Origin: Curvularia clavata
Lineage: Eukaryota
Assembly (NCBI GenBank): GCA_023920165.1
Contig: CP089279.1
Location: forward strand, 2,852,001 to 2,916,000
Reading direction: 5' to 3'
Length of the DNA: 64,000 nucleotides
Both the position numbers and the translations under genes were made by a program. The notes beneath the pieces were generated by a model. That model did no database searches. It saw only the letters and a list, made by a program, of their open reading frames with translations, and was not told the origin of the DNA. Shown in pieces: positions 11,704 through 28,262 of this stretch (positions are counted from its first letter, which is position 1; the number at the start of each line of letters is the position of its first letter).

Positions 11704-12463
11704 AGCGGAGGAAATGGCTCGTGAATAAATTCTTCTTTTTTTTTTTCCCTTTGCGATTCTACTTTATTAGACACTTTTCTTTTCTCTAGAAGTCTCTCTT
11801 CTAGCTTGTACAGATGTGCTGGTGATGTAGTTAGGAGACAGACTTATATTGCTTATAGAGTAAACGTTATTCCTTTTTTGATCTTGGCATCAGATATAGA
11901 GTATGTGACAGGTATCATATGTGCCACACTAGCAACAGTATGATTCAACCTGTAAGTGCATCCCTTGCTTGCTTGCTTGCTTGCTCGCTCGCGTAAACTG
12001 CCGCCATCACAGAGCTCCGTAGAGCAAGATAGTCTGAAATCCATGGTCCACAATTGGATACTTTCGAGCCTTTATTCCGGGAGTGGCAGCAGCTATCTAA
12101 GCCGCCGCCCACTCCTTACGACAAGCGCAGTGCGGAACAACTACCAAACAATCTTACTCATTTCAAGCCCATGATCCATCACAGCAGGGTTCTTGGAACA
12201 GAACTCTACAATGCGTTTGTAGAGATTACGCAGCCAAAACTTGTTCTCTTTTTTTTTTCCATAATTTGCTAGTTCATTTCCCTTGCCACCCATCCATCTA
12301 ATCCATGTCCATAAAACTTTTCGTTAAAGTGCGCTGCGGAACATCCGCCAGCAAGTGAATAATGCAGATAATACCCAAGGCTAAGCGCAGTAAAACGCCA
12401 GACGCTGAAGATGCAGCAGAGAATGAAGACGTCGATCCAACACTGTACACATCGGTATTCAGT

Positions 12464-15228
12464 TTAAAATCCAGCGGCCAGCATGAGGCCGTAGCCAACC
12501 GTGACGATGACAACAAAAGTAATAACAGAGGCAGGAATACCACGAGTCAAGAAGTGCTTGACTGCGAGGTACCGCTGGCCTGTTCGCTGGTCTTCCATCA
12601 TGATAGCAGCTATCGTCTGTTAGCATCAAATTCTCAGACACAGCCGGAACAAAACATGACTTACTCATATTGGGGAAGCCACTGGTTGGCAGACCCATGG
12701 CTCCACTCGCCATCAACACAGCGCCCATGACAAGCAGATTCGGGTGTGGCTCTGCCATCTGCTGACCGACTTGCTGGACGAGCGGTAGGACGATAAGAGC
12801 TGCAACAGTGTGGCTAATGAAGGTTGCCACTACCAGAATCAAGGCGCAAAAGACGACAAGCACTCCATACAGACTCATGCCTTCGACGCTAGCTGTAATA
12901 GATTCAGCAATCGTGTGCAAGAGGCCAGACGAATTGACGGCTTTTCCGAGAGAGAGACCGCCAGCAGCGAGAATAATGATGGTCCACAGAAAGTTGTTGA
13001 AGTCTTCCTTGGTAAGGATGCCGGTACCGAAGAATAGCACGATGGGGATGATGGCGACAACACCCATATCGCCAAAGACAAACTCGAGTTGGTGGCTGAC
13101 ACACCATAGCATGATGGTCACAACAGTGACAACGCTGATAAAGTATTGAACGCCAGTAAACCTGTCCTTGAGCGGGCGGATAGGTACAATGCTGGTACCT
13201 TTGCCAGGTTGGAAGGTGACGAGGAGAAGCATCCAAATGAGCAAGATGGAGATGATGCACACCGGGAGGGCCACGAAGAACCAGATACCCCACGAGGGCT
13301 CGGGTTGCATGTTCTGAAGCGCAATCAGGTTCTGCGGCGAGGCAATGGGAGACGCGGCTCCGCCAATGTTGGAGGATAGCGCAATTCCCATCAGCAGAGC
13401 CTTGGTCATATCAGAGTCGGCGGGGAGGTTGCGCAGAATAGGCTGAAGCAAGTTAGCTTGGCGCTGTGAATGTTTGTAAACATGGGACATACCTGGATGA
13501 TAGAGAAGCAGAGGACAGGGGCCGCTACGTTGCTGATCCACATACTGGCGAACATGGCGACAAACATGTTGACAAGCAAGACGGTTCGCGGTTTGGTACC
13601 TGCCTTGCTGAGTACAAGCGTAGCCATCATCTTGGCAATATTGTACTTGGAAAGGGCGGCAGCAATGGTGAAACCACCCAGGAGAAGCATGATGACTGGC
13701 GTCCACATGGCCGAGAAGACGTAGGAAGCAGCTTGCTTAGAGTCGAGTCGGCGATGCGGCTCGACATCGCTTCGTACAACGTTGAGAGTGACGGCCAGGA
13801 ATGGGACCAATAGCGACGTGACAAAGAGTGGTATTGCCTATTCTCGTTAGCGCAAGATTGACCATTACCGCGGGTTTGGTGTAACCGTACCTCAGTCGCC
13901 CAAAGCAAACTGACAAAAACGACCATGGCCAAGCAATTCTGCTGCTCCGGCTTCTCCATAATGGGCACTACTAACAAGACGACAAAGACGGCAATACAGG
14001 TGAGCAGCATCCAGAAGGGCTTGCTGATGAGCCACGAGGGACATCTGTATCTTCCAATTGGTGTGTCCACCTCTTTCATGTCGGATTCCACATCGTCACC
14101 CTGTCGTCGCACGTTGCCGCCTGTAGTCTCGCGACCGAGCAAAGTGTGGGTGACGCCTATGTTGGCCGCTTGCGCCTTGCGCTCAATACCAATCATTTCC
14201 CTCCACACCGTGTTCCGCTCCCAGACGACATGCTCTCGCAAATGCAACCTCAGCTCGCGCTTGGCTTCTGCCATGTCGCCCTTTGTACCAATCTTTGCAT
14301 AGGCAGACTCTATGCGTTCCAGGTTGCGTGATAGCTCGTCCATGGTGCTTTGTTGGAAGGGATAGGCCGGGTAGACGTATTTGGTCAAGTAGGTCTTTTT
14401 CAGCTTGCGGTCCAGGATCTTGTCGTACTTTTTCAATACTTTTTCAAATCCCGTCTTGTTCAGCTGGATAAACGAGCGCAGCTCACAGAGCAAGACGTAT
14501 ACGCTCACGATGCGCTTCTTCAACGAAACACCCTCATCATATAGTGCGGAAAAGGCCATGTCGTGGTAGTCGTCGAATGCGACGCTGGCCATGCGCCTGG
14601 ACGAGGCATGCGAGGCGGCCATGTCCTCGTTTGTTCGGCGGCGTCGGCGCTGGCCATCCGGACTCTTCTTACGCAGCCGTGATGTCTCGTCGATTTCTTC
14701 GTCTGAGTCGTCATCGGGGCCGTGGTCGGTGGAGACACCGCTTGTGGCGCTCATTGTGCGGGGGCGCTGGAAGCCGATGGATTTGAAGATGCTTCCGCTG
14801 CGCATCTTCTTTCCTGGCGGGGCATTCTCGTTTTCCTCGTTGTACTCGGCCTGGTGGTCTTCAAACGTCTCCTCGTCATGAAGCAATGCGCTCAGTTCCT
14901 CGTAAATTTCATTTTCCTTGAGCTTGTAAAAGGACGTGACACGCTCGAGCTCGGTATCGAGTGCATTGGTAAAGGTCTTGTCAGGGTCGTCGGCCTCGCC
15001 ATTGAGCAGCGGAGACGATTCGGCGTCTACGTTTGCATGCGCATTTCTTTGGTTGATCTGGGTCTCGAGGCTGTAGATTCTATAGGCAAAGGCCGGTCAG
15101 CCGCGGTGGCTAGTTACGTCGTGTGCGTGGCAGGCGGGTACGTACTGCTTCTTGAGATTGCTGTAAGCAATGTAGTGGTTGCTCCAGTCCGGGACAGCAT
15201 TGAACTGCAGGCTGTGGGAGAACTTCAT
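12464..15228 (-). CDS. SPX-domain low-affinity phosphate transporter, Pho87/Pho90/Pho91 family (multi-exon)
   Basis: MKFSHSLQFNAVPDWSNHYIAYSNLKK and QLNKTGFEKVLKKYDK SPX motifs; SLC13-type core (SMWISNVAAP, SNIGGAASPIASPQN, GLPTSGFPN); ends GYGLMLAAGF*. In-frame upstream ATG at 15366 is possible. Confidence 0.93.
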
Positions 15229-15969: not shown

Positions 15970-18434
15970 TTAGACTAGATTCGGGGGTTAGCAAACGTCA
16001 TGACAGCACAATAGCACCTGGGCACTTACACCTGAGGTCCCAGCCAATCTTGGGTCCTAGCTTAGGCAGCTCCTCAGCCACGCTCTGAACATCCTTGTCA
16101 CCACGGCCAGAGACACAGATGACAATGTCCTGGTCCTTATTCATCGTCTTGGCCAGCTCAATCGCGCCGTAGACCGCGTGAGACGTCTCCAGCGCGGGGA
16201 TGATACCCTCCAGCTGCGACAAGAGACGGAAGCCAATAAAGGCCTCGGCGTCGGTGCATGCAATGAACTTTGCCCGGTCGCTGTCCTTCCAGCTCGACAG
16301 CTCAGGTCCCACGCCAGGGTAGTCGAGGCCAGCAGACACCGAGTGTGTCTCGCTGATCTGCCCGTGCTGGTTCTGGATCACGTACGTGCGCACGCCGTGA
16401 AGAACTCCCTTGGTGCCAGCCGAAAGCGTAGCACTGTGGCGGTCCGTGTCGATGCCATCACCACCAGCTTCGACACCCAGCAGCTTAACCGAAGCGTCCT
16501 TGGAAAAGGGGTAGAACATGCCAACCGCGTTACTTCCACCACCCACGCAGGCAACTACCGCGTCAGGGAGCTTGCCGCGCTTGGCCTGCATCTGTTCCTT
16601 GGTTTCGTTTCCGATAATCGACTGGAAAGTCCGCACAATCGTGGGGAATGGGTGTGGTCCGATCGCAGATCCAATGATGTAGTGAGTTGTGTCGAGATGA
16701 ACGACCCAGGCGCGCATGGCCTCGTTGACGGCATCGCGGAGCGTCTGAGATCCAGCCTCGACAGCTACAACCTGCGCACCAAGCAGCTTGATACGGAACA
16801 CATTCAGAGCCTGGCGTCTGACGTCCTCGGCGCCCATGTAGATGGTGCACTTCATGTTGAACTTGGCGCACACTGTCGCCGTTGCCACACCGTGCTGTCC
16901 AGCTCCAGTTTCGGCAATAATCTCAGTCTTTCCAAGTCTCCTGGCAATAAGAACCTGGCCAAGCGCATTGTTGATCTTGTGACTTCCAGTGTGGTTGAGA
17001 TCCTCTCGCTTCAGCCAGATGTTTGCTCCGCCAGCGTGCTCGGTGAGACGCTCAGCAAGATGCAAATGTCCCGGTCTGCCCATCCATTCGTAATAAGAGC
17101 GGTACTCTTCCCAAAACTTGGGGTCTTCAATCGCCGAATTGAAGCCTTCTTCAAGCTCAGAAAGGCAGTCCATGAGCGACTCGGGGACGTATTGACCTCC
17201 GAACTCGCCGAAACGGGGTGGGAACTTGTGAGTCTCGTTGAACTCGTTCTTTCCACTGGTGCCATTTGTGTCCTCGGTGTTAAGCATCTCCAGTTGGTCG
17301 GCAAGGCCAGGTCCGTTGGGTGTATCCGCATCAGTAATGACCTTGTCCACGTGAACGCCAGTCGGCTCCTTGGCCTCGTTCAAAGTCTCCACAATGCCAA
17401 CCTCGCGTGTCGTTTCCCTGCTGCTCTTTCCGCAGATTTCATCACAGTACTCTTGTACTGCTTTTGCACCAGTGCCAGGCGCAGCCTTGAGCAGAGTGTG
17501 AATAATCTGGCTACCAATAACGACACCTTCAGCAATCTTGCCAACGCTCAAGAAGTGGTCGCGCGTGCTAACACCAAATCCAACCGCTGCTGGCACGTTT
17601 CCAGAGTACTTGTGTACACGCTCGAGAAGCTGGGGAAGGGCCGCGTTCATGGTTCCGGTAGCGCCAGTGACGCCCATGCGAGAGACGACGTATATGAAGG
17701 AGTCGGCAATCTTGCAGAGGACACGCATCCGGTGCTCCGAGGTAGCGGGTGCAATCAGAGGTACATAGGAAAGGCTATTCGTTGTCGTCAGTCTTGTCTT
17801 AGATACAATTGAGTGGCGGACTTACCCATAACTGCGGCAGAAGTTCCTAAAGCGCAGGGCCTCCTCGGGTGGAAGGTCTACCATGATAAAGCCGTTGGCG
17901 CCAGCTTCCTTTGCGTCCTGTAGCATCTTCTCCTCGCCGTAGCTCAGCAGAGGGTTGTAGTATCCCATGAGCAGAACGGGTGCCTTGAGCCCCCGCTTTC
18001 TCGCATCGCGGATCATTTGGAGGACATCGGTAATCGTAACGCCGTTCTTGAGGGCTTGCTATTGACACAATGTCAGGTCGGAAGGGTTTTTGTGCAGTGT
18101 GGCGAATGAGTCAACGTACAGTGTTTGCTGTCTGAATGGCTGGACCGTCTGCGATGGGGTCGGTGAAGGGCATACCGAGCTCAATGATGTCTAGAAACGT
18201 CAATTGACTGTTTGGTCGCATCGCGAGCGCAACTCCTCATGGTACATACCGGCGCCGCCCGCCTCCATGGCCATCATGATGTCGGGCGTCTCTTGAGCGG
18301 TAGGGAAACCTGCCGTCACATAGGTGATGAGAGCAGACTGCAGGCTGTCAATACCAATTACTTTCCGAGCCTTTACGATAACATACTCTGCCCTCCTTCT
18401 TGCATTGCGCAAACGTCTTCTTGATTCCCTCCAT
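15970..18434 (-). CDS. TRP5: Bifunctional tryptophan synthase (alpha-beta fusion)
   Basis: [28 protein letters not shown] alpha motifs; [20 protein letters not shown]-Lys, [24 protein letters not shown] beta motifs; terminal 5-nt coding exon. Confidence 0.98.
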
Positions 18435-18526: not shown

Positions 18527-20480
18527 CAGTTTCCAGGGCTGTTGTTGGACACCGAGGCAGATGGGAGGGTGTATGAGTCTTGTGTTCACAATTTATTGAG
18601 CCCGAAAGCGGCATGTCGGAGGGGTTGTTGGCCCCGCCAGCGCTGATTGGATGACGTGGCTAAAGGCACAGGCACAATCTCACTCGCTTCTAGAAGGCCG
18701 ATCCAGCCTCAGCGTTCCAAGTTTTCGGTATCAACGTCATGTGGCGACCATTATGGAAAAATTAACGACATCTTCAACACGGCAGTCGGCATTCGTTGAT
18801 GATATTCCTTCTAGTAGGACAGATGCATATCGTGATTCTGCCGCGGTCGAAGCCATATCCGTCTTGCAATCATAGGGTGTAATTTGGGGTTTCATCTGTA
18901 TAGTACTTCTCGGCGCATTTCACACCGACACAAGGAAACTGTGTCATCACTATCAATGCTATCTATATGCGACACCTTTCTCTGTAATTGCGGAGTGAGG
19001 GAATACTCTGGGTCTTGTTGACCTAAACATCCTTTTGACAGCTTCTCTTCTGGCTTGTTGTTCTACCTCTGGTATACACAATAGAAGCAAGTAGCCACAC
19101 CAGCAACCAAAATACTTCAATCTCACGTATTAGGTACTACCTTCACTACGCGCCGTTGGAGTCACGGGTGATCAGATGAGTTTTACTTCTGATTTGTATC
19201 TGTTATGCCTACCGAGAATAAACACTACAGCTGCTATTATAAGAATTAACTGGGTATTATTCCTACTCATAGTTTCGTACATTCGGCTGTTGTTGCAAGT
19301 TTTCGTCAATACAAGTTACACAGGAATTTCTTCAGCGCCTTGGGAAACTCGCTATCGTAGGAAGCTCAGAGCGGTATTTTCTTATTTCTTATTTCGTACT
19401 GCTGTTCGTATGTAAATGCGCCTAGGTAGCACAACAGTAGTCATATCCTCGACGTGCTACATGCCAGAATATTTGAAGTCTGCTTCCCCGGGCAGCGCGT
19501 CTACAAGTCATCACTCGTTCCCTTTCATTTCTAACCGGGTAACGGTCCTGCTACCCATACATATCCAAAATTCTTCTTCAGGTCGAATAGTAGACGTTTT
19601 GTAATTACGTCTTATTTACAAAGCCTTTTAAGAACCACGTCATGTATGATTCACTATCGAAAGTATGCTAAATGAACTCGCTAGCTGAAAAATAGAAGGA
19701 ACAGTGATATGAGAGTGGCTTACGCTGTAAGTGATGTGTGGCGTTGTTGCGTTAAGAATACAAGAGGCTTTGTGTTTCTTGTTAGAGGCGCGCTTCTTGA
19801 AGACTTGATTCTGAGCGGTGAACAACGACACATTCGTCCCTAACTCAGGCAAAAATTACAACCACCGTAATTCCTCTATTACACCTGCTACCATATAGCC
19901 TGTCTACTTGACAACTATGGCTGGCCGTATATTGTCCTCAGCCTACGGTCCTAGTAGCATGTGCAGCCATGCCATCTAACTCCAGCCGTTCGCACTCTAC
20001 TGACTCCATGTCATTCGTGCTTCCTGCTTCGTCTTCATTGCACTCTACTCTTCTTGAGCCTCCCTGATATGTGTTGTAAGAGATTCACCCGGTTTGCCCG
20101 CTGAGCTCAAGAACCGTGAAACCGTCATGAACGTATGAGGCTCGTTCTATCTTCGCAGGTCTGTCGGTCAGAAGAATCTTGCAGCCTGAAGTTGTTAGAC
20201 GGCTAACCTTGACTATTGGTCATCTGGACTTACCAACCTTTAACACCATCTGGAGGCTCTGTACAGCGTGTTCAATATGAACAGTTCAAAGGTTTGCGGT
20301 TGTTCCAAAATTTGGGATGGAAGTCAACCAGACCATCTGTGATCGGAATGCCGTATTTTCTGGGTTGGGTGCCTAGTTAAGGTTTCACCACCATGACAGG
20401 TGGCGGGAGCTGTCCGCTTTCGAGTCTTGCAGATACCAAGGTAACGGCATTGCAACAGCATGGCGTTCATAGGAAGATCT

Positions 20481-21152
20481 CTATCGCGTTCCATATCTCT
20501 TATGAAGTATGCCCCATTCTGAGTCAAAGTATCGCCCGAATCCTCGGATCTCACACATGCGATTGTAGCACTTCTGGCAAAGTTGATTCCGGAATCTGGT
20601 TCTCTCGCAACGCCCATCTCGTCTTGGATCCTTTTCCCAACTCGGATCGGGTTGCCCATACTTGTCTACCGGTCCAATCTTCCAGTTGGCATCGATGCGT
20701 CTCCTTAGCCTTGGGTCGTCGAACACACATGGAAAGCCAAGTCGGTCACCGTCAAATTTTTCGAGCCATGGGCAGTTTTGTTCCTTTGCCTTACGATAGC
20801 ATCGCGCGCATAACTGTCCACGATAGCGTACTGTGCCACAAAGACGTGAGTCCTTGGGATTAAAGCTGCGGCGCCAGCTGTGGGCGTGGTATTCTGGGTC
20901 CTTACAAGCACACAGAAACGGCCAGCCTTTTCTGATTCGCTCCGCAGACTCCAGTTCGAGCTGTTGTTTGTATGCATCAATGAGCTGGTTGACGGATTCA
21001 GTGTCTGGTTGCGTCTCTGATCGCTTATACAGCTCGTCAAAGCTCATATTCTTACACCATGAGCATATTTCTGGGCCTCTTTCTTGCCCTTCTGGACAAG
21101 AGTCACAAGAAGCGCCAAATACGCAGTGAGTCCTTGGAGGTGGTGCCAACAT
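20481..21152 (-). CDS. Cys-rich protein B, putative zinc-binding modules (one N-module, two C-modules)
   Basis: PPPRTHCVFGASC-x13-CSWC; FLCACKDP..W..CGTVRYRGQLCARC; FPCVFDDP..W..CERTRFRNQLCQKC; ATG at 21152. Confidence 0.75.
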   Translation of the reverse strand: MLAPPPRTHCVFGASCDSCPEGQERGPEICSWCKNMSFDELYKRSETQPDTESVNQLIDAYKQQLELESAERIRKGWPFLCACKDPEYHAHSWRRSFNPKDSRLCGTVRYRGQLCARCYRKAKEQNCPWLEKFDGDRLGFPCVFDDPRLRRRIDANWKIGPVDKYGQPDPSWEKDPRRDGRCERTRFRNQLCQKCYNRMCEIRGFGRYFDSEWGILHKRYGTR

Positions 21153-21241
21153 GGTAAGCAACTATACAGTGGCCAACCTGACGGCGTTAGTAACAATACT
21201 GCCGTGAAAGAGTTTACTTACCCAAAGTAGATACCTCCCAG

Positions 21242-21787
21242 TTATGTAGGATCGGAGTTCAAAAGTGTGTTGTATCCCTCCACATCGTCGTCGGATCCCT
21301 CACTGCCCTCCTCCGAGCTTGCCGGCCTAGTTACGACTTTGTCTGCTACCTCATGGCAGAGCCCAGTCGGCGTGAAATACTGCAAGATCCGGATTTTTCG
21401 AAGTCGTCTCCTCCAGCACTTGGGACAAGCAGTGCCTTTTCTACGGACAGAAGGGCAGTCGAGTCGGGTGCCACGGAGGTTCAAGTCGAGTAATCGCCAC
21501 CGACAATGCTGGAAATCAGGATCCTCAAAAGCGCATAGATAGCGGCCGCGCGCTTCGATGTTTCGTTTTAAAACTTGTTTACGAGTGGTTTCTTCGTTGA
21601 TTGTTGTAATAGCCAAAGAGCTGGAGTTTGCCCACACACGGAGTTGTTGTGGATCGTGTCGTTGAAGACAGTCAGGGCAGACACGGTGAGGAACCTGGAC
21701 TTTCTTGCCAATGCCGAGACAATGAAATCCAGTGACGCATTCAACGATTGGCGGGGGTTTGAATAGCGAGTCGGAAATTGAAGACAT
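21242..21787 (-). CDS. Cys-rich protein A, paralogous to protein B (one N-module, one C-module, acidic tail)
   Basis: PPPIVECVTGFHC-x13-CPDC; YLCAFEDP..W..CPSVRRKGTACPKC; same motif order and spacing as ORF B. Confidence 0.72.
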   Translation of the reverse strand: MSSISDSLFKPPPIVECVTGFHCLGIGKKVQVPHRVCPDCLQRHDPQQLRVWANSSSLAITTINEETTRKQVLKRNIEARGRYLCAFEDPDFQHCRWRLLDLNLRGTRLDCPSVRRKGTACPKCWRRRLRKIRILQYFTPTGLCHEVADKVVTRPASSEEGSEGSDDDVEGYNTLLNSDPT

Positions 21788-24268
21788 TGGCTGGTGCCGA
21801 GGATATGGTAGCCTGAAGTTCCGCGCTCGACTCCTTTACGTTTAGTTCAACGTCCTTGCATCGCGCCTTGTGTAACTTGGTGCTATTTCCGGTACGGGCC
21901 TTGGTGATGTCCAATCTGGTATTCCTGACTATTGTGCCACATGATGAAATGATTTGTAGGAGGAAGCGTTTGTCAGGCACAATTGGGTTGCATTTTGCAC
22001 GCGACGGAAAAAGGATGTCGGACAAGCGGATTGCCCGTTTCCGAGGGCATGAGTAGCAGCCAATGCAACGAAGCGAGCACTTTCAGACGCGGCAAGCTAT
22101 GGTCACATTGATGGAAGCTTCTTGTGGCGTAGAAGCTGTCCGACGATTCGGCTCGATAATAATGACTTGGCGGCCTGCGGCCCTGATCAGCTCGGTTGGC
22201 TAACGAGCGTTGTGGCCAAACCACCCCCTTGGACCAATTGGGTACTACCCGTAACGAGATGCACTTGGACGCCATAGCAGATGTTATGATGCATTTTTGC
22301 CTAAAGCTATGATCACTCTAGGGTGTGAGTTTTGCGGTCAAAGCAAGATCCAGAATATCGGCCGGCTCGTATATCATCGTAGCTGAGCCGGATCTCACAT
22401 ACAGCTCTGATGTTAGCGGTTTCATTCGCTGGCGAGGACTGGGAAATAGTGGCGTTCAGAAGAACTTTGTAGTATGACTGCCGAATCTCCGAAGGCTGAA
22501 ACTCGCCGTGATTCGATGATGCCATGATAAAGTTTCGCTTCTCAAATCCTAAACGTTGCTGAAGATCATCGTGCACGTGCTAAGACCTTGCTGATGAAGC
22601 CCAAGCTACTGACTCGTCCCGGTCCATCCGCATCGCAGTGTGACCAAATATGCGTCGTTATCTGAAACCTTGTACGATGATTCCGTCTTTACAGTACTCT
22701 TGCAAACGCTGCACAGCCTCTTGTACGCGATGTGATCGAGCGATCGTAAGTATTCGATCAATTATCTCCTTGTGGCGCCGTGTGCCGATCGGCTAGGTAG
22801 GTACATAGTTCAGAAAAACGACCTTTGCATACCGATTTCACCTGAGCACTAATCGTCGGAACCTTGAGTCACATTCTCTTTGATGTGATTCAAGAATACA
22901 ATCAAACAGCCAATCTGCTGCCGTTGTGCAGGCATGTACTCTAGCGTCACTTCTTGCCCATGGTAAAATGCCGCCGAAACGACTACGGAATCTTCACAGG
23001 TCACCACTATATTGCTACAACTGGATCCAGCAAGGTGCCATGTGTTGTGCAAAACCAACAAAGAGTTGGGGTAATTTGACCAAAGCTGCAGGTTGCCACA
23101 GTGGACCCATGTTGGCATGTTGACCTTGCCTGAAGCAACAATACAATGCTACTGTAGAGCATATAACTGCGTGTGTAGTGTAGTACGATCGTCCAAAGCG
23201 ATATGAGGATACTCAAGGGTGGGCTCCGACGTGTAATTTGTGCAACCAATTACTCCTGTCTGTTTGCACTGTTGTATGCCCAACCCTGAAGGAGTTGTGT
23301 ACTGCAAACCTGGTGTGTTGGTGGCCTTAACGGACGGCTGGTAGTAACGACACCACCGAGGAAAAAAAATGGTCGCGTGCGTCAAGCGATACTGTAAATG
23401 CCACTGTCAATCTATCAAAGGCAGACATTGTACAATGCACCAAGGACTCTTGCTTGATTCATAGGCGTCAAGGATAGGAGTTGCATAATTTACTTGTTCC
23501 GCACTTGAGCTAAACAGTATTTATCCAGTGGCCTTTTTGTGAGGGCACTGTTTCGTGACTGCGGGGAAAGCCGCACCGAGGCTGGCTGAAGCACGGCCAA
23601 GAAGCAACAGCGGAAAAAGCTACATCATGATTTGTTCGTTGCTTGCCGTCGTGTTGGGCTTGCGTGTAAGTAGTGCAGGGAGCGATCATGTCACTACGCA
23701 GGGCTGATGTCACGTACTTCCAAGGCCAACAGGCTAGTATGTACACGGGCATAATATCCCGTGACCGTTGTCTCCAATTAGAGGTCTTGTGCAGTCAGCT
23801 GGAATACGCACGCTGCGGTCTCACTTATTTTTTTCATGCTCCTGTCCGTCCGACTCGCTCCCGGAGGTTAAGGATTGCTGTGGCAACTGCACGTCGGTCA
23901 GGGCTCGGCAAGGCTGTTTGTCGCCTCAGGCAAAGGGATGTATGTAGGTGTACAATTGTGTATGCAAGGAGTCGGGATCTTCAACACCCTTGTTAAGGTG
24001 GCATTGCGCAGAGACCTTTGACCTCAGCGGCGAAGAAAACATGACAAGGTGAAGGTCTGTTCTTTTGACGCGCGGCTGAAATCAACAATGGCCCTGAAGC
24101 ACGGACCGTGCATCCTTGCGCGTTCATTCAATGAAAACATGTGCAACGACGCGCAACCATCACAAAGCATCCCGAGCCATACAAGCGGATACGTCACGGT
24201 ACGAGCCGTAAGACTCTCATAACCTGTTGCCAATCCGCCCATTAGAATAAAAAGACGAGGCTGGCTGA

Positions 24269-26125: not shown

Positions 26126-28262
26126 ATGTTCCCACCCGCTCGCTTTGCAGTTCCTACGCTGCTGGTACTGGCAGCTCCCACTTTCGCTCAGCTCCAGTCT
26201 GAACCTGCTAGTCTTAAAGTGCTCAAGTCGCGCTTCGGAGATGGTGTAACAGTCACGTATAAAGAGGTACGGATCCAATAGGACAAGTCAATACACGTCC
26301 CAGTTAGATTCCTCTAACAGGGATCTTTAGAACACACTTTGTGAGACCACACCAGGTGTTAAGTCTTACTCTGGTTATGTTCATCTACCCCCTGGAACTG
26401 CAGACTTGGGTCAAGGACAAGACTACCCCATCAACACTGTAAGCCATATGTTGCGACGGCCCTTTTGGCATGATCTGAATCGGTGATAGTTCTTCTGGTT
26501 CTTTGAAGCTCGCAATGATCCCGCCAACGCGCCCCTCACAATCTGGTTGAACGGCGGACCGGGATCGTCGTCCATGTATGGATTACTTGAGGAAAATGGA
26601 CCATGTTACGCGAATCCAGACTCGAATTCTACTAGACCAGCAGAATGGAGCTGGAATGAAGCATCGAACATGCTCTACCTCGACCAGCCAGTGCAGGTTG
26701 GCTTGTGAGTGTTAACTCTTCCAAGCTATCGGCTATGTGTCAGCTAATCATAGATTCCCAGTTCGTACGATACTTTGCAGAATGTCACCAGGAACCTTGC
26801 CACTGGAGAGGTCCGGCTATTGAGTGACAATACCCCTGTTCCTGAGCAAAACACTACTTTCCTTACTGGCACATATCCTAGTCGTGACCCTAACACCACG
26901 ACTTTTGGTAGTGTCAACGGAGCAATAGCAGCATGGGAGTTTGCACAGGCTTGGTTCCAGGAATTCCCTCACATCGTGCCCAATGACACGCGCATTAGCC
27001 TTGCTGCTCAGTCGTACGGTGGCCGTTATGGACCCGCTATGATGTCTTTCTGGGAAGAACAAAATCAACGGATTGAAAACGGCACTCTGACTGAAGGCTA
27101 TGTTATGCACTTGGATACCCTGCTCCTTATCTCCGGCTGCATCGACCGCTATATCCAGTTTCCTTACTATCCTCAACAAGCGTACCAAGGCAATGGATAT
27201 GGAATCGAAGCTGTCAACGAAACAATCTACAATGGCATGGTCAATGCCATTCCTGAATGTCTGGAGAGGATCCAGAAGTGCCGCGATGCTGCTGCTGTGT
27301 CTGATCCCGAAAACCTGGGTATTGACGCTGGAGTCAACGATATTTGCGAGGACGCCGAGACATTTTGCCGCGCAAGAATAGTCACTCCATACAACAACTA
27401 TGCGGGCCGCGACTACTATGACATTTCCACGCCATCGCCTCCGCCTTTCCCACCACCATTTCATGAAGGGTATTTGAACCGTGAATGGGTCCAAGCAGAG
27501 CTCGGTGTGCCACTCAACTGGACGGGCAGCTCCCCACAGGCTTCAGCGGCCTATCGTGGCATCGGTGACTACCCGCGTGATGGTTGGGTCGAAGATCTCG
27601 GCTTTCTCCTCGACAATGGGATCAAAGTGTCACTAGTGTACGGTGATCTTGACTTTGCATGCCCCGTGAGTACCTTTTTCCCAACCCAACCCAACCCTTG
27701 AAGCTGTGTCACTAACAAAAAGACCTTGCAGTGGGGCGGTGGTGATGCCGTGGCCAGAGCAATCAACTGGACAGGGTCCGCCGGGTATGCATCTGCGCAG
27801 TACGCCGAGATCCAAACAAACGACTCCTATGTCGGCGGCCTCGTCCGCCAATACGGAAACTTGAGTTACATCCGCACCTACCAAGCCGGTCATGCCATCC
27901 CTGCCTACCAGCCCGAGACAGCCTTCAGGATCTTCACCCGTGCCCTATTCAACCTCGATATTGCTACTGGTACCGAGTCGACTGCTGGCACGGATGAGGC
28001 GAGCACGTACATGAGCACAGGGCGGCCGGATCCAAATGTGCAGTTTGAGGCGTATACTACCGACGCCCTGAGGTACTGTTACATCTGGGATCTTAGCTCG
28101 TGCACAGAAGACCAGGTCGATGCCGTCCTGGACGGGTCCGCCGAAATCTGCCAATATCTGGTCGTGGATGCTAACTCGACGCAATTGTTTCCAGAGGTGA
28201 TTGCCGGGTGCCGTGCTGGGGCCGGTGGCAACAGCAGTATTTCCTCTGGTGTTAGCTTTTAA
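26126..28262 (+). CDS. Secreted serine carboxypeptidase, peptidase family S10 (4 introns)
   Basis: Signal peptide; [52 protein letters not shown] (Ser), YGDLDFAC (Asp), AGHAIP (His). Confidence 0.93.

What the first reader, a model, noticed from the sequence alone, without database searches (positions are those of the whole stretch)
20481..21787. Tandem paralogous Cys4-module ORFs joined by an intron-containing 89-nt spacer: candidate bicistronic or stop-recoded unit
Seen: ORF A (21787-21242) stops only 89 nt before the ATG of ORF B (21152) on the same strand. The spacer holds a canonical-looking 44-nt intron (GTAAGT at 21221, CTAAC, CAG at 21178). Removing it leaves 45 nt that put A and B in frame: ..PT-TAA-LGGIYFGLATV-TAG-LLT-MLAPPP. 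Inference: one transcript may carry both ORFs, expressed by reinitiation, readthrough or A-to-I restoration of stops. UAG-to-UGG restoration is established in Sordariomycete sexual stages and in Neurospora zinc-finger genes next to OTT_1508-like deaminases; I know no such report for Dothideomycetes. Caveats: frame agreement has a 1-in-3 chance, TAA needs two edits, and B could simply have a 5'-UTR intron with its start site inside A.
Basis: partly seen in the sequence, partly recalled or inferred. Interest (0 to 1): 0.8.

Follow-up and report, generated by a model that had tools for sequence, protein, structure and literature searches.

The report
Conserved two-ORF fungal transcription unit
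Two related cysteine-rich genes of a Pleosporales fungus lie 89 bases apart, are covered by one spliced RNA and remain two separate proteins, so this looks like a conserved two-gene message and not one gene restored by stop-codon recoding.

Summary
ORF A (21787-21242, 181 aa) and ORF B (21152-20481, 223 aa) are paralogues (BLASTP E 5e-8; profile-profile E 8e-9). The 44-nt spacer intron (21221-21178) is real: one 2140-nt RNA contig runs 22099-19869 across A, the spliced spacer and B.

The pair is conserved across Pleosporales. Fifteen of 26 related metagenome loci carry A directly upstream of B. The gap is 88-113 nt in 11 lineages. An intron-like GT/GC..branch..YAG signal occurs in 11 of 12 spacers, against 7-10% in controls.

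The recoding idea is not supported. After the most likely splice, A and B are in frame in 7 of 11 lineages, and only 3 of those have no further stop. A's stop is TGA in 9, TAA in 2 and never TAG. No listed RNA difference falls on the stops.

Best reading (0.55): a conserved dicistronic unit that makes two proteins, with B started at its own AUG. A has a pyrimidine at -3 in 7 of 7 lineages, no internal Met and few AUGs. Main rival (0.35): a nested B transcript whose 5'-UTR holds the intron. That intron persists in a lineage where A has decayed.

One distant relative (Dendryphion nanum) has A-like and B-like halves in one continuous ORF. The function of the Cys4 modules is unknown.

The parts
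21788..22099 (-). 5' leader covered by the RNA contig (about 312 nt, four upstream ATGs)
   Evidence: The X7 contig reaches 22099 and the X3 contig reaches 22105. The two ends from two studies lie within 6 nt, which is a weak hint of a transcript start. Upstream ATGs at mRNA positions 50, 107, 158 and 239 open ORFs of 25, 6, 19 and 4 codons.
21242..21787 (-). ORF A, 181 aa, two Cys4 modules and an acidic tail with a conserved DDDVEGYN motif; stop TAA at 21244-21242
   Evidence: There are 72 homologues, all named ones from Pleosporales. The start context has C at -3.
21222..21241 (-). Intercistronic exon part 1 (20 nt between A's stop and the splice donor)
   Evidence: The equivalent stretch is 19-35 nt in relatives with a predicted intron.
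21178..21221 (-). 44-nt spliceosomal intron in the spacer (GTAAGT .. CTAAC .. CAG)
   Evidence: It is spliced out in X7 RNA contig record 11. The same signal is found in 11 of 12 related spacers, against 7-10% of controls.
21153..21177 (-). Intercistronic exon part 2 (25 nt), containing the in-frame TAG at 21164-21162
   Evidence: The sequence block just before the ATG is conserved among the closer relatives.
20481..21152 (-). ORF B, 223 aa, three Cys4 modules; start context has A at -3
   Evidence: There are 67 homologues. The AlphaFold2 model has mean pLDDT 82.3.
19869..20480 (-). 3' untranslated region covered by the RNA contig
   Evidence: It holds no conserved ORF and has no similarity to the related loci.
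20186..20233 (-). 48-nt intron in the 3' UTR, about 247 nt after B's stop
   Evidence: It is spliced in contigs of X3 and X7. A 52-nt variant is spliced in X18. GTAAGT, CTAAC and CAG were read.

Best explanation
A and B are two separate, conserved protein-coding cistrons. They are paralogous Cys4-module proteins with no known family. They belong to one transcription unit that is made as a spliced dicistronic mRNA of about 2.1 kb: leader, A, 45-nt spacer, B, then a long 3' UTR with a second intron. The stops after A are genuine terminators, so two proteins are made and not a fusion. B is started at its own AUG by ribosomes that reach it from the 5' end. The most likely route is leaky scanning past A's weak AUG through an AUG-poor A, helped by reinitiation after very short out-of-frame ORFs. 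Shown: the ORFs, their paralogy, the conserved layout, splicing of the spacer intron, and an RNA contig that bridges both ORFs. Inferred: that this RNA is a single molecule, that B is translated from it, and the scanning mechanism. The likely origin is either fission of a two-half gene or a tandem duplicate captured in one unit.
For: (1): X7 record 11 (2140 nt) covers 22099-19869 with both introns removed.
(2): A lies directly upstream of B in 15 of 26 related loci. The A-stop to B-ATG gap is 88-113 nt in 11 lineages. In the window, the next ORFs of 120 aa or more lie about 2 kb away on each side.
(3): an intron signal is present in 9 of 12 spacers with a strict GT donor (controls 2.6-6%), and in 11 of 12 when a GC donor is allowed (controls 7-10%).
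(4): the stretch from stop to donor is only 19-35 nt. By the textbook 50-55-nt rule (recalled), a junction that close to the stop should not trigger decay.
(5): A's ATG has a pyrimidine at -3 in 7 of 7 lineages, while B has a purine in 5 of 6. A has no internal Met and 2-4 ATGs in any frame, against 5-7 expected from codon shuffles. B has 10-14.
(6): every out-of-frame ATG inside A opens a short ORF (2-22 codons, one of 61) that ends at least 55 nt before B's ATG.
(7): two ORF calls on Logan contigs of 2249 and 2205 nt carry B with a 30-residue N-terminal extension. The arithmetic gives a 55-58-nt spacer, which is the spliced length. The DNA was not seen, so this is an inference.
(8): Dendryphion nanum has an A-like half (E 3e-18) and a B-like half (E 2e-5) in one ORF. 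That ORF is continuous on a 1413-nt contig, which suggests the two act together.
Against: Short-read contigs can merge overlapping transcripts. The Z. tritici Iso-Seq preprint describes exactly this (passages read). No single molecule, 5' end or poly(A) site was seen here. In run X3, A and B lie on separate contigs that break at 21223 and 21122. The ATG depletion in A is modest: P 0.09-0.38 per lineage, and 12% of 543-nt ORF windows in this window have as few ATGs. The lineages are not independent. The leader has four upstream ATGs. A has decayed in at least one lineage (L007). It is unrecognisable in another (L009-L011 and L019), yet B and an intron just before its ATG persist there. B can therefore be expressed without a working A, which fits a B-owned promoter and 5'-UTR intron. 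Long upstream ORFs usually prevent efficient reinitiation in eukaryotes (established knowledge).
Confidence: 0.55

Rival explanations
1. Nested monocistronic genes. B has its own promoter and start site inside or just after A's coding region, and the spacer intron is simply B's 5'-UTR intron. A's mRNA either ends nearby or reads on through B as a long 3' UTR. The bridging contig would then be an assembly of overlapping transcripts, or an A mRNA from which B is not translated.
For: In L009-L011 and L019, A is not recognisable. The only trace is a weak remnant at the syntenic place (E 4.4). B is intact there, and a GTATGT..CTGAT..TAG intron lies 10 nt before its ATG. In L007, A carries frameshifts and stops while B is intact. 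X3 gives separate contigs for A and B. Overlapping transcripts of neighbouring genes are often mis-joined by RNA-seq assembly in a related class of fungi. Introns near the 5' end of a transcript are common in fungal genes (recalled).
Against: A conserved gap of 88-113 nt leaves no room for a terminator plus a promoter. Both would have to lie inside coding sequence in all lineages. No contig start was seen inside A. The X3 B contig starts 30 nt after B's ATG and ends in adapter sequence, so that is an assembly break and not a start site. The X7 contig is continuous. A's weak start context and low ATG count are unexplained by this model.
Confidence: 0.35
2. Stop-recoded single protein. A and B are joined into one polypeptide by readthrough, or by A-to-I editing of the TAA and TAG in the spliced spacer, as in sexual-stage editing of Sordariomycetes.
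For: In the window the spliced spacer is 45 nt and in frame. Seven of 11 lineages are in frame after the best-scoring splice, against one third expected; my own binomial estimate puts this near P 0.08, and the lineages are not independent. A naturally continuous A-like plus B-like ORF exists in Dendryphion nanum. Stop-loss editing is documented in Sordariomycetes (PMC13123824, passages read).
Against: Four of 11 lineages are out of frame. Four of the 7 in-frame ones have 1-3 extra stops, and only 3 are open apart from A's stop. A's stop is TGA in 9 lineages, TAA in 2 and TAG in none. The edited stops described are TAG, and TAA needs two edits. No listed RNA-versus-DNA difference falls on the stop codons (3 of 21 differences in the two coding pieces of the X7 contig were not displayed, and contigs hide rare variants). 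A's C-terminal DDDVEGYN tail and B's MLAPPP start are conserved as ends. The passages read place sexual-stage mRNA editing in Sordariomycetes. A search for A-to-I, RNA editing and Dothideomycetes found 4 papers, all on Fusarium.
Confidence: 0.03
3. Alternative splicing joins A to B, with a donor inside A and an acceptor at or after the TAG, as in several annotated fused gene models.
For: At least nine NCBI gene models I inspected from Pleosporales fuse the two: P0020, P0022, P0027, P0033, P0144, P0150, P0139, P0175 and P0172. The TAG at 21164-21162 could itself serve as a YAG acceptor (one search lists a 60-nt variant, but it is out of frame).
Against: The join points differ from model to model, and most delete A's invariant C121/C124 pair. 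All 6 longer relatives of A are annotated gene models and none is a raw ORF call. The only joint seen in RNA is 21221/21178. A is conserved through to its own stop.
Confidence: 0.05

Closest known systems
Polycistronic transcripts of fungi found by long-read cDNA: Fusarium graminearum with 914 transcripts from 321 loci (bioRxiv 10.1101/2021.11.08.467853, passages read); Zymoseptoria tritici with 224 robust cases (10.1101/2023.04.26.537486, passages read); Agaricomycetes (cited there)
   Same: Two same-strand ORFs of more than 100 aa are separated by stops and covered by one RNA.
   Different: Those cases are mostly rare read-through products beside independent single-gene mRNAs, and their conservation is not described in the passages read. 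Here the pair, the gap of about 90 nt and an intron inside the gap are kept across an order. No independent single-gene RNA has been seen, and none has been excluded.
Bicistronic loci of green algae translated by leaky scanning (PMC11291117, passages read; PMC7896298, listing only)
   Same: There is a short inter-ORF gap. The upstream ORF has a weak start context. Upstream AUGs would limit translation of the downstream ORF.
   Different: A still holds 2-4 out-of-frame AUGs. No in vivo test exists. The gap holds an intron.
Drosophila dicistronic mRNAs stoned and Adh-Adhr (as summarised in PMC2978622, passages read)
   Same: Adh-Adhr is a pair of related genes on one mRNA. In stoned, the downstream ORF is reached by context-dependent leaky scanning.
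   Different: Different kingdom and different proteins. For Adhr an internal ribosome entry site is proposed, and nothing here supports one: there is no consistent RNA structure.
Sexual-stage A-to-I stop-loss and premature-stop editing in Sordariomycetes (PMC13123824, passages read; PMC5496914, abstract only)
   Same: There are in-frame stops between two coding stretches in this window.
   Different: The stops are TAA or TGA and not TAG. The frame is not conserved. No edited base was seen. The class differs (Dothideomycetes).

Membership tests
Eukaryotic dicistronic/polycistronic mRNA | One RNA molecule spans two non-overlapping ORFs on the same strand | tested here: inconclusive
   One assembled RNA contig spans both with the introns removed. 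Assembly from short reads cannot prove a single molecule.
Eukaryotic dicistronic/polycistronic mRNA | The ORFs are separated by stop codons and each is conserved as its own protein | tested here: met
   The lengths of A and B homologues cluster at 172-182 aa and 219-223 aa.
Eukaryotic dicistronic/polycistronic mRNA | The downstream ORF is translated from the dicistronic RNA | not testable with these tools
   This needs ribosome profiling, reporters or tagged proteins.
Leaky-scanning bicistrons (green-algal type) | Weak start context on ORF 1 | tested here: met
   A pyrimidine at -3 in 7 of 7 lineages for A, against a purine in 5 of 6 for B. The fungal genome-wide baseline is recalled and was not computed.
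Leaky-scanning bicistrons (green-algal type) | Few or no AUGs between the two start codons | tested here: inconclusive
   A has 0 in-frame and 2-4 out-of-frame ATGs, against 5-7 expected (P 0.09-0.38). It has the second-lowest ATG density of 44 long ORFs in the window, but 12% of matched windows are as low.
Termination-reinitiation of the viral TURBS type | Stop and restart codons overlap or nearly so, with a conserved upstream motif complementary to 18S rRNA | tested here: not met
   The gap is 45-61 nt after splicing. A UGGGA next to the stop in the window is not conserved in relatives. The motif identity is recalled.
A-to-I stop-loss/stop-restoring editing (Sordariomycetes) | Editable UAG stop with a conserved in-frame continuation | tested here: not met
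   The stops are TGA in 9 lineages and TAA in 2. The frame is lost in 4 of 11 lineages and extra stops occur in 4 more.
A-to-I stop-loss/stop-restoring editing (Sordariomycetes) | A-to-G differences between RNA and DNA at the stop | tested here: inconclusive
   None is listed at 21242-21244 or 21162-21164. However, contigs drop rare variants, the tissue stage is unknown, and 3 differences in the two coding pieces of the X7 contig were not displayed.
Programmed stop-codon readthrough | Conserved open frame after a single leaky stop | tested here: not met
   This holds in only 3 of 11 lineages. The window has two stops.
Zinc-binding Cys4 modules (zinc-ribbon-like) | Four invariant Cys per module with fixed spacing | tested here: met
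   Invariant columns. The first module has the same C-x5-C-x13-C-x2-C spacing in A and B.
Zinc-binding Cys4 modules (zinc-ribbon-like) | Match to a described family or fold; metal binding | tested here: inconclusive
   Pfam and NCBIfam gave no hit above cut-off. There is no PDB sequence hit. Foldseek's best E is 2.4 and the VIA-align best Z is 2.8. Metal binding cannot be tested here.

The most novel reading that the evidence does not exclude
The unit is an obligately dicistronic nuclear mRNA conserved across the order Pleosporales. It arose by fission of an ancestral two-half Cys4 protein, which is still one ORF in Dendryphion nanum. The former internal intron now sits between the cistrons, 19-35 nt after the first stop. 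The second protein is made by leaky scanning through a start-weak, AUG-poor first cistron. On this reading the two paralogues are kept in fixed proportion because they work together.
Probability: 0.25. Interest if true: 0.7.

Novelty: new member of a known kind. Interest (0 to 1): 0.45.

Why it matters
Polycistronic RNAs in filamentous fungi are mostly treated as read-through noise. A pair that has kept its gap of about 90 nt and an intercistronic intron across a whole order would be a natural, testable case of dicistronic expression in an ascomycete. It would also be a possible example of gene fission that stays within one transcript. On the practical side, it explains why annotations of Pleosporales genomes disagree at this locus: some give separate genes of about 177 and 222 aa, and others give fused models of 310-441 aa that delete invariant cysteines. 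It also defines a small, order-restricted family of Cys4 proteins that has no Pfam entry and no structural match.

Tried and rejected
1. Whole-genome search: no genome is held for this window.

2. Complex prediction of A with B returned 'no answer' (score 0.00, controls not run, alignments not used). It says nothing either way.

3. Function searches all came up empty. Pfam and NCBIfam had no hit above cut-off. The PDB had no sequence match. Foldseek on the PDB gave a best E of 2.4. VIA-align wide gave a best Z of 2.8. The ESM Atlas gave a best score of 0.79, with WRC and Zf_WRKY19 only on minority members of phage clusters, which is at the level of shuffled queries.

4. The gap between the two X3 contigs (21123-21222), and the adapter-tagged end at 21122, could look like separate transcripts. 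I do not count a part without cover as evidence.

5. The X18 and X19 contigs are short pieces, some from a relative at about 91% identity. They do not bridge the spacer.

6. RNA structure around the stop, spacer and start: z-scores range from -2.5 to +0.2 in 7 lineages against mononucleotide shuffles, with no consistent fold. A recurring pairing of A's GGAGG-rich tail with B's CCNCC codons rests on conserved coding sequence and shows no covariation.

7. A TURBS-like UGGGA next to A's stop is not conserved.

8. A third ORF in the 3' UTR: there is none, and the region has no similarity to related loci.

9. Further family members in the window: there are none.

10. Earlier findings of this scan: nothing by place, sequence or words.

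11. Literature: searches found no report of this gene pair or of a conserved nuclear dicistron in Pleosporales. The 9 papers holding 'polycistronic' and 'Pleosporales' concern mitochondria, viruses or unrelated topics, judged from the listing only.

12. Seven of the 26 loci (L017, L018, L022-L026) hold only a C-terminal piece of B and were left out of all counts.

Full report
**What is there**

On the minus strand, ORF A runs 21787-21242 (181 aa, stop TAA at 21244-21242). ORF B runs 21152-20481 (223 aa). They are separated by 89 nt. The spacer holds GTAAGT from 21221, a CTAAC motif and CAG ending at 21178. A TAG at 21164-21162 lies in frame with B's ATG. Removing the 44 nt leaves 45 nt and one shared frame interrupted by TAA and TAG.

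The two proteins are paralogues.
- BLASTP gives 26% identity over 125 residues, E 5e-8.
- Family profiles align with probability 95.8%, E 8.1e-9.
- A has two invariant Cys quartets and B has three. The first quartet has identical spacing in both.

Neither protein matches Pfam or NCBIfam, any PDB sequence or any solved fold. The AlphaFold2 models have mean pLDDT 82.3 for B and 66.3 for A. A profile search of 1.84 billion representative proteins finds only 34 clusters at E up to 0.001. The family is therefore small. All named members come from Pleosporales. The nearest named homologues are from Exserohilum turcicum, with A at 86% identity. No whole genome is held for the window.

**RNA evidence**

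I laid four public runs on 19500-23000.

Run X7 gives one 2140-nt contig covering 22099-19869 with two joints. One skips 44 nt and the other 48 nt, each with GT..AG ends on the minus strand. These correspond to introns 21221-21178 and 20233-20186. So the spacer intron is spliced, and the same contig continues through all of A and all of B.

Run X3 splices the 3'-UTR intron but carries A and B on separate contigs that break at 21223 and 21122. The second break ends in adapter sequence. I treat these as assembly breaks. X18 and X19 give only short pieces.

In the two coding pieces of the X7 contig, 18 of 21 differences from the window are displayed. They are ordinary transitions of another strain. 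None lies on the stop codons.

The caveat is that contigs can merge overlapping transcripts. This is documented for a related fungus.

**Comparative evidence**

A scan of metagenome contigs returned 26 loci.
- Fifteen have A directly upstream of B.
- Four (one sequence type: L009-L011 and L019) have no recognisable A.
- Seven hold only a piece of B and were not used.

With the window, this gives 11 distinct lineages that carry A or its remains. The distance from A's stop to B's ATG is 88-113 nt in all of them. The next long ORFs around the window's pair are about 2 kb away on each side. They include a tryptophan synthase, an SPX/transporter gene and a carboxypeptidase.

A splice donor, branch site and acceptor in the right order and spacing occur as follows:
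- 9 of 12 spacers with a strict GT donor, against 2.6-6% of shuffled or random controls.
- 11 of 12 spacers when a GC donor is allowed, against 7-10% of controls.

The intron is therefore a conserved part of the spacer.

**Against recoding**

After the best-scoring splice, A and B share a frame in 7 of 11 lineages. Four of those 7 have one to three further stops, and only three are open apart from A's stop (L006 and L014, plus L008 unspliced). Four lineages are out of frame.

A's stop is TGA in nine lineages, TAA in two and never TAG. A's acidic tail motif DDDVEGYN is conserved with synonymous changes, so it is read as protein up to the stop. B's MLAPPP start is nearly invariant.

Fifty-one of 72 A homologues are 172-182 aa, and 36 of 67 B homologues are 219-223 aa. 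Annotated fused models exist. Their join points differ, and most remove A's invariant C121/C124. All six longer relatives of A are gene models and none is a raw ORF call. I take them as prediction artefacts. They may have been prompted by transcripts that span both ORFs.

Stop-loss editing is described for Sordariomycetes and for TAG stops. My search for it in Dothideomycetes found only Fusarium papers.

**How B may be made**

A's ATG has a pyrimidine at -3 in 7 of 7 lineages, while B's has a purine in 5 of 6. A has no internal Met and 2-4 ATGs in any frame, against 5-7 expected. B has 10-14. This is suggestive but weak: P is 0.09-0.38 per lineage, and 12% of matched windows are as poor in ATG.

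All out-of-frame ATGs in A open short ORFs that end at least 55 nt before B's ATG. This pattern fits leaky scanning plus reinitiation after mini-ORFs, as shown for green-algal bicistrons and Drosophila stoned.

No consistent RNA structure or conserved restart motif was found.

**The main rival**

In L007, A is broken by frameshifts and stops. In L009-type loci, A is gone except for a doubtful remnant at the syntenic place (E 4.4). B is intact in both, and an intron still sits 10 nt before its ATG in L009. So B can live without A, and the intron may simply be B's 5'-UTR intron with a start site inside A. The data at hand cannot separate this from the dicistronic reading. Both kinds of transcript may exist.

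**Further leads**

Two Logan ORF calls for B, on contigs of 2249 and 2205 nt, carry a 30-residue extension. The arithmetic gives a 55-58-nt spacer, which is the spliced length. This hints at a bridging spliced RNA in a Pyrenochaeta-like fungus, but the DNA could not be fetched.

Dendryphion nanum has a 318-aa protein with an A-like half (E 3.3e-18) and a B-like half (E 2.1e-5). A 407-aa continuous ORF on a 1413-nt contig contains it. It is either a natural fusion or an unsplit ancestor, and it suggests that A and B act together. A complex prediction gave no verdict.

**Verdict**

One transcription unit is likely, and stop recoding is unlikely. The best reading is a conserved dicistronic unit encoding two Cys4 paralogues (0.55). 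The main rival is a nested B transcript (0.35). This is a new, well-conserved member of a known kind, fungal polycistronic transcripts, and is of moderate interest.

Noticed in passing
window 20186-20233 (-): A second canonical intron (48 nt) lies about 247 nt after B's stop. It is spliced in X3 and X7, and a 52-nt variant is spliced in X18. An intron that far downstream of a stop is a classic trigger of nonsense-mediated decay (recalled), so the mRNA may be decay-regulated.
   Followed up: partly
window 21788-22099 (-): The leader covered by RNA contigs has four upstream ATGs that open ORFs of 25, 6, 19 and 4 codons. Contigs of two studies end within 6 nt of each other (22099 and 22105), which is a weak hint of the transcript start.
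   Followed up: no
window 21242-21256 (-): Relative to close relatives, A's usual TGA stop position reads TCC in the window, and the ORF runs four codons further to a TAA that is also present in L020. This shortens the stop-to-donor distance from 32 nt to 20 nt.
   Followed up: partly
P0168 / P0169 (Dendryphion nanum and a Logan contig of 1413 nt): A single continuous ORF has an A-like N-terminal half and a B-like C-terminal half, and lacks B's third Cys4 module. It is either a natural fusion or the ancestral unsplit form.
   Followed up: partly
L007:150-800; L009:2000-2520 (also L010, L011, L019): These are lineages in which A is a pseudogene (L007) or almost erased (L009 type), while B and an intron just upstream of its ATG remain intact.
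   Followed up: partly
P0019, P0178, P0079 (Logan contigs of 2249 and 2205 nt): The N-terminal extension of B on these contigs overlaps, in another frame, the tail of A. This implies a spacer of only 55-58 nt, which is the spliced length. The contig sizes are close to the 2140-nt RNA contig of X7.
   Followed up: partly
P0144, P0170-P0174 (Pyrenophora tritici-repentis gene models): In this species B seems to stop matching after about residue 76. A different Cys-rich ORF of 211 aa follows, and the isolates are annotated in at least five different ways. This may be a rearrangement of the locus.
   Followed up: no
L012:619-735; L013:267-370: The predicted spacer intron starts with GCAAGT in these two lineages. 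A GC-AG intron would be a rare type, and there is no RNA evidence for it.
   Followed up: no
L008:2396-2501: This spacer has no good intron signal. It is in frame and open between A's TGA and B's ATG, 102 nt. It is the one lineage where simple TGA readthrough would give a fusion.
   Followed up: no
window 15998-17821 (-), 12459-15096 (-), 26754-27701 (+): The neighbouring genes are ordinary housekeeping types: tryptophan synthase (PALP plus Trp_syntA), SPX with a CitMHS transporter, and a serine carboxypeptidase S10.
   Followed up: no
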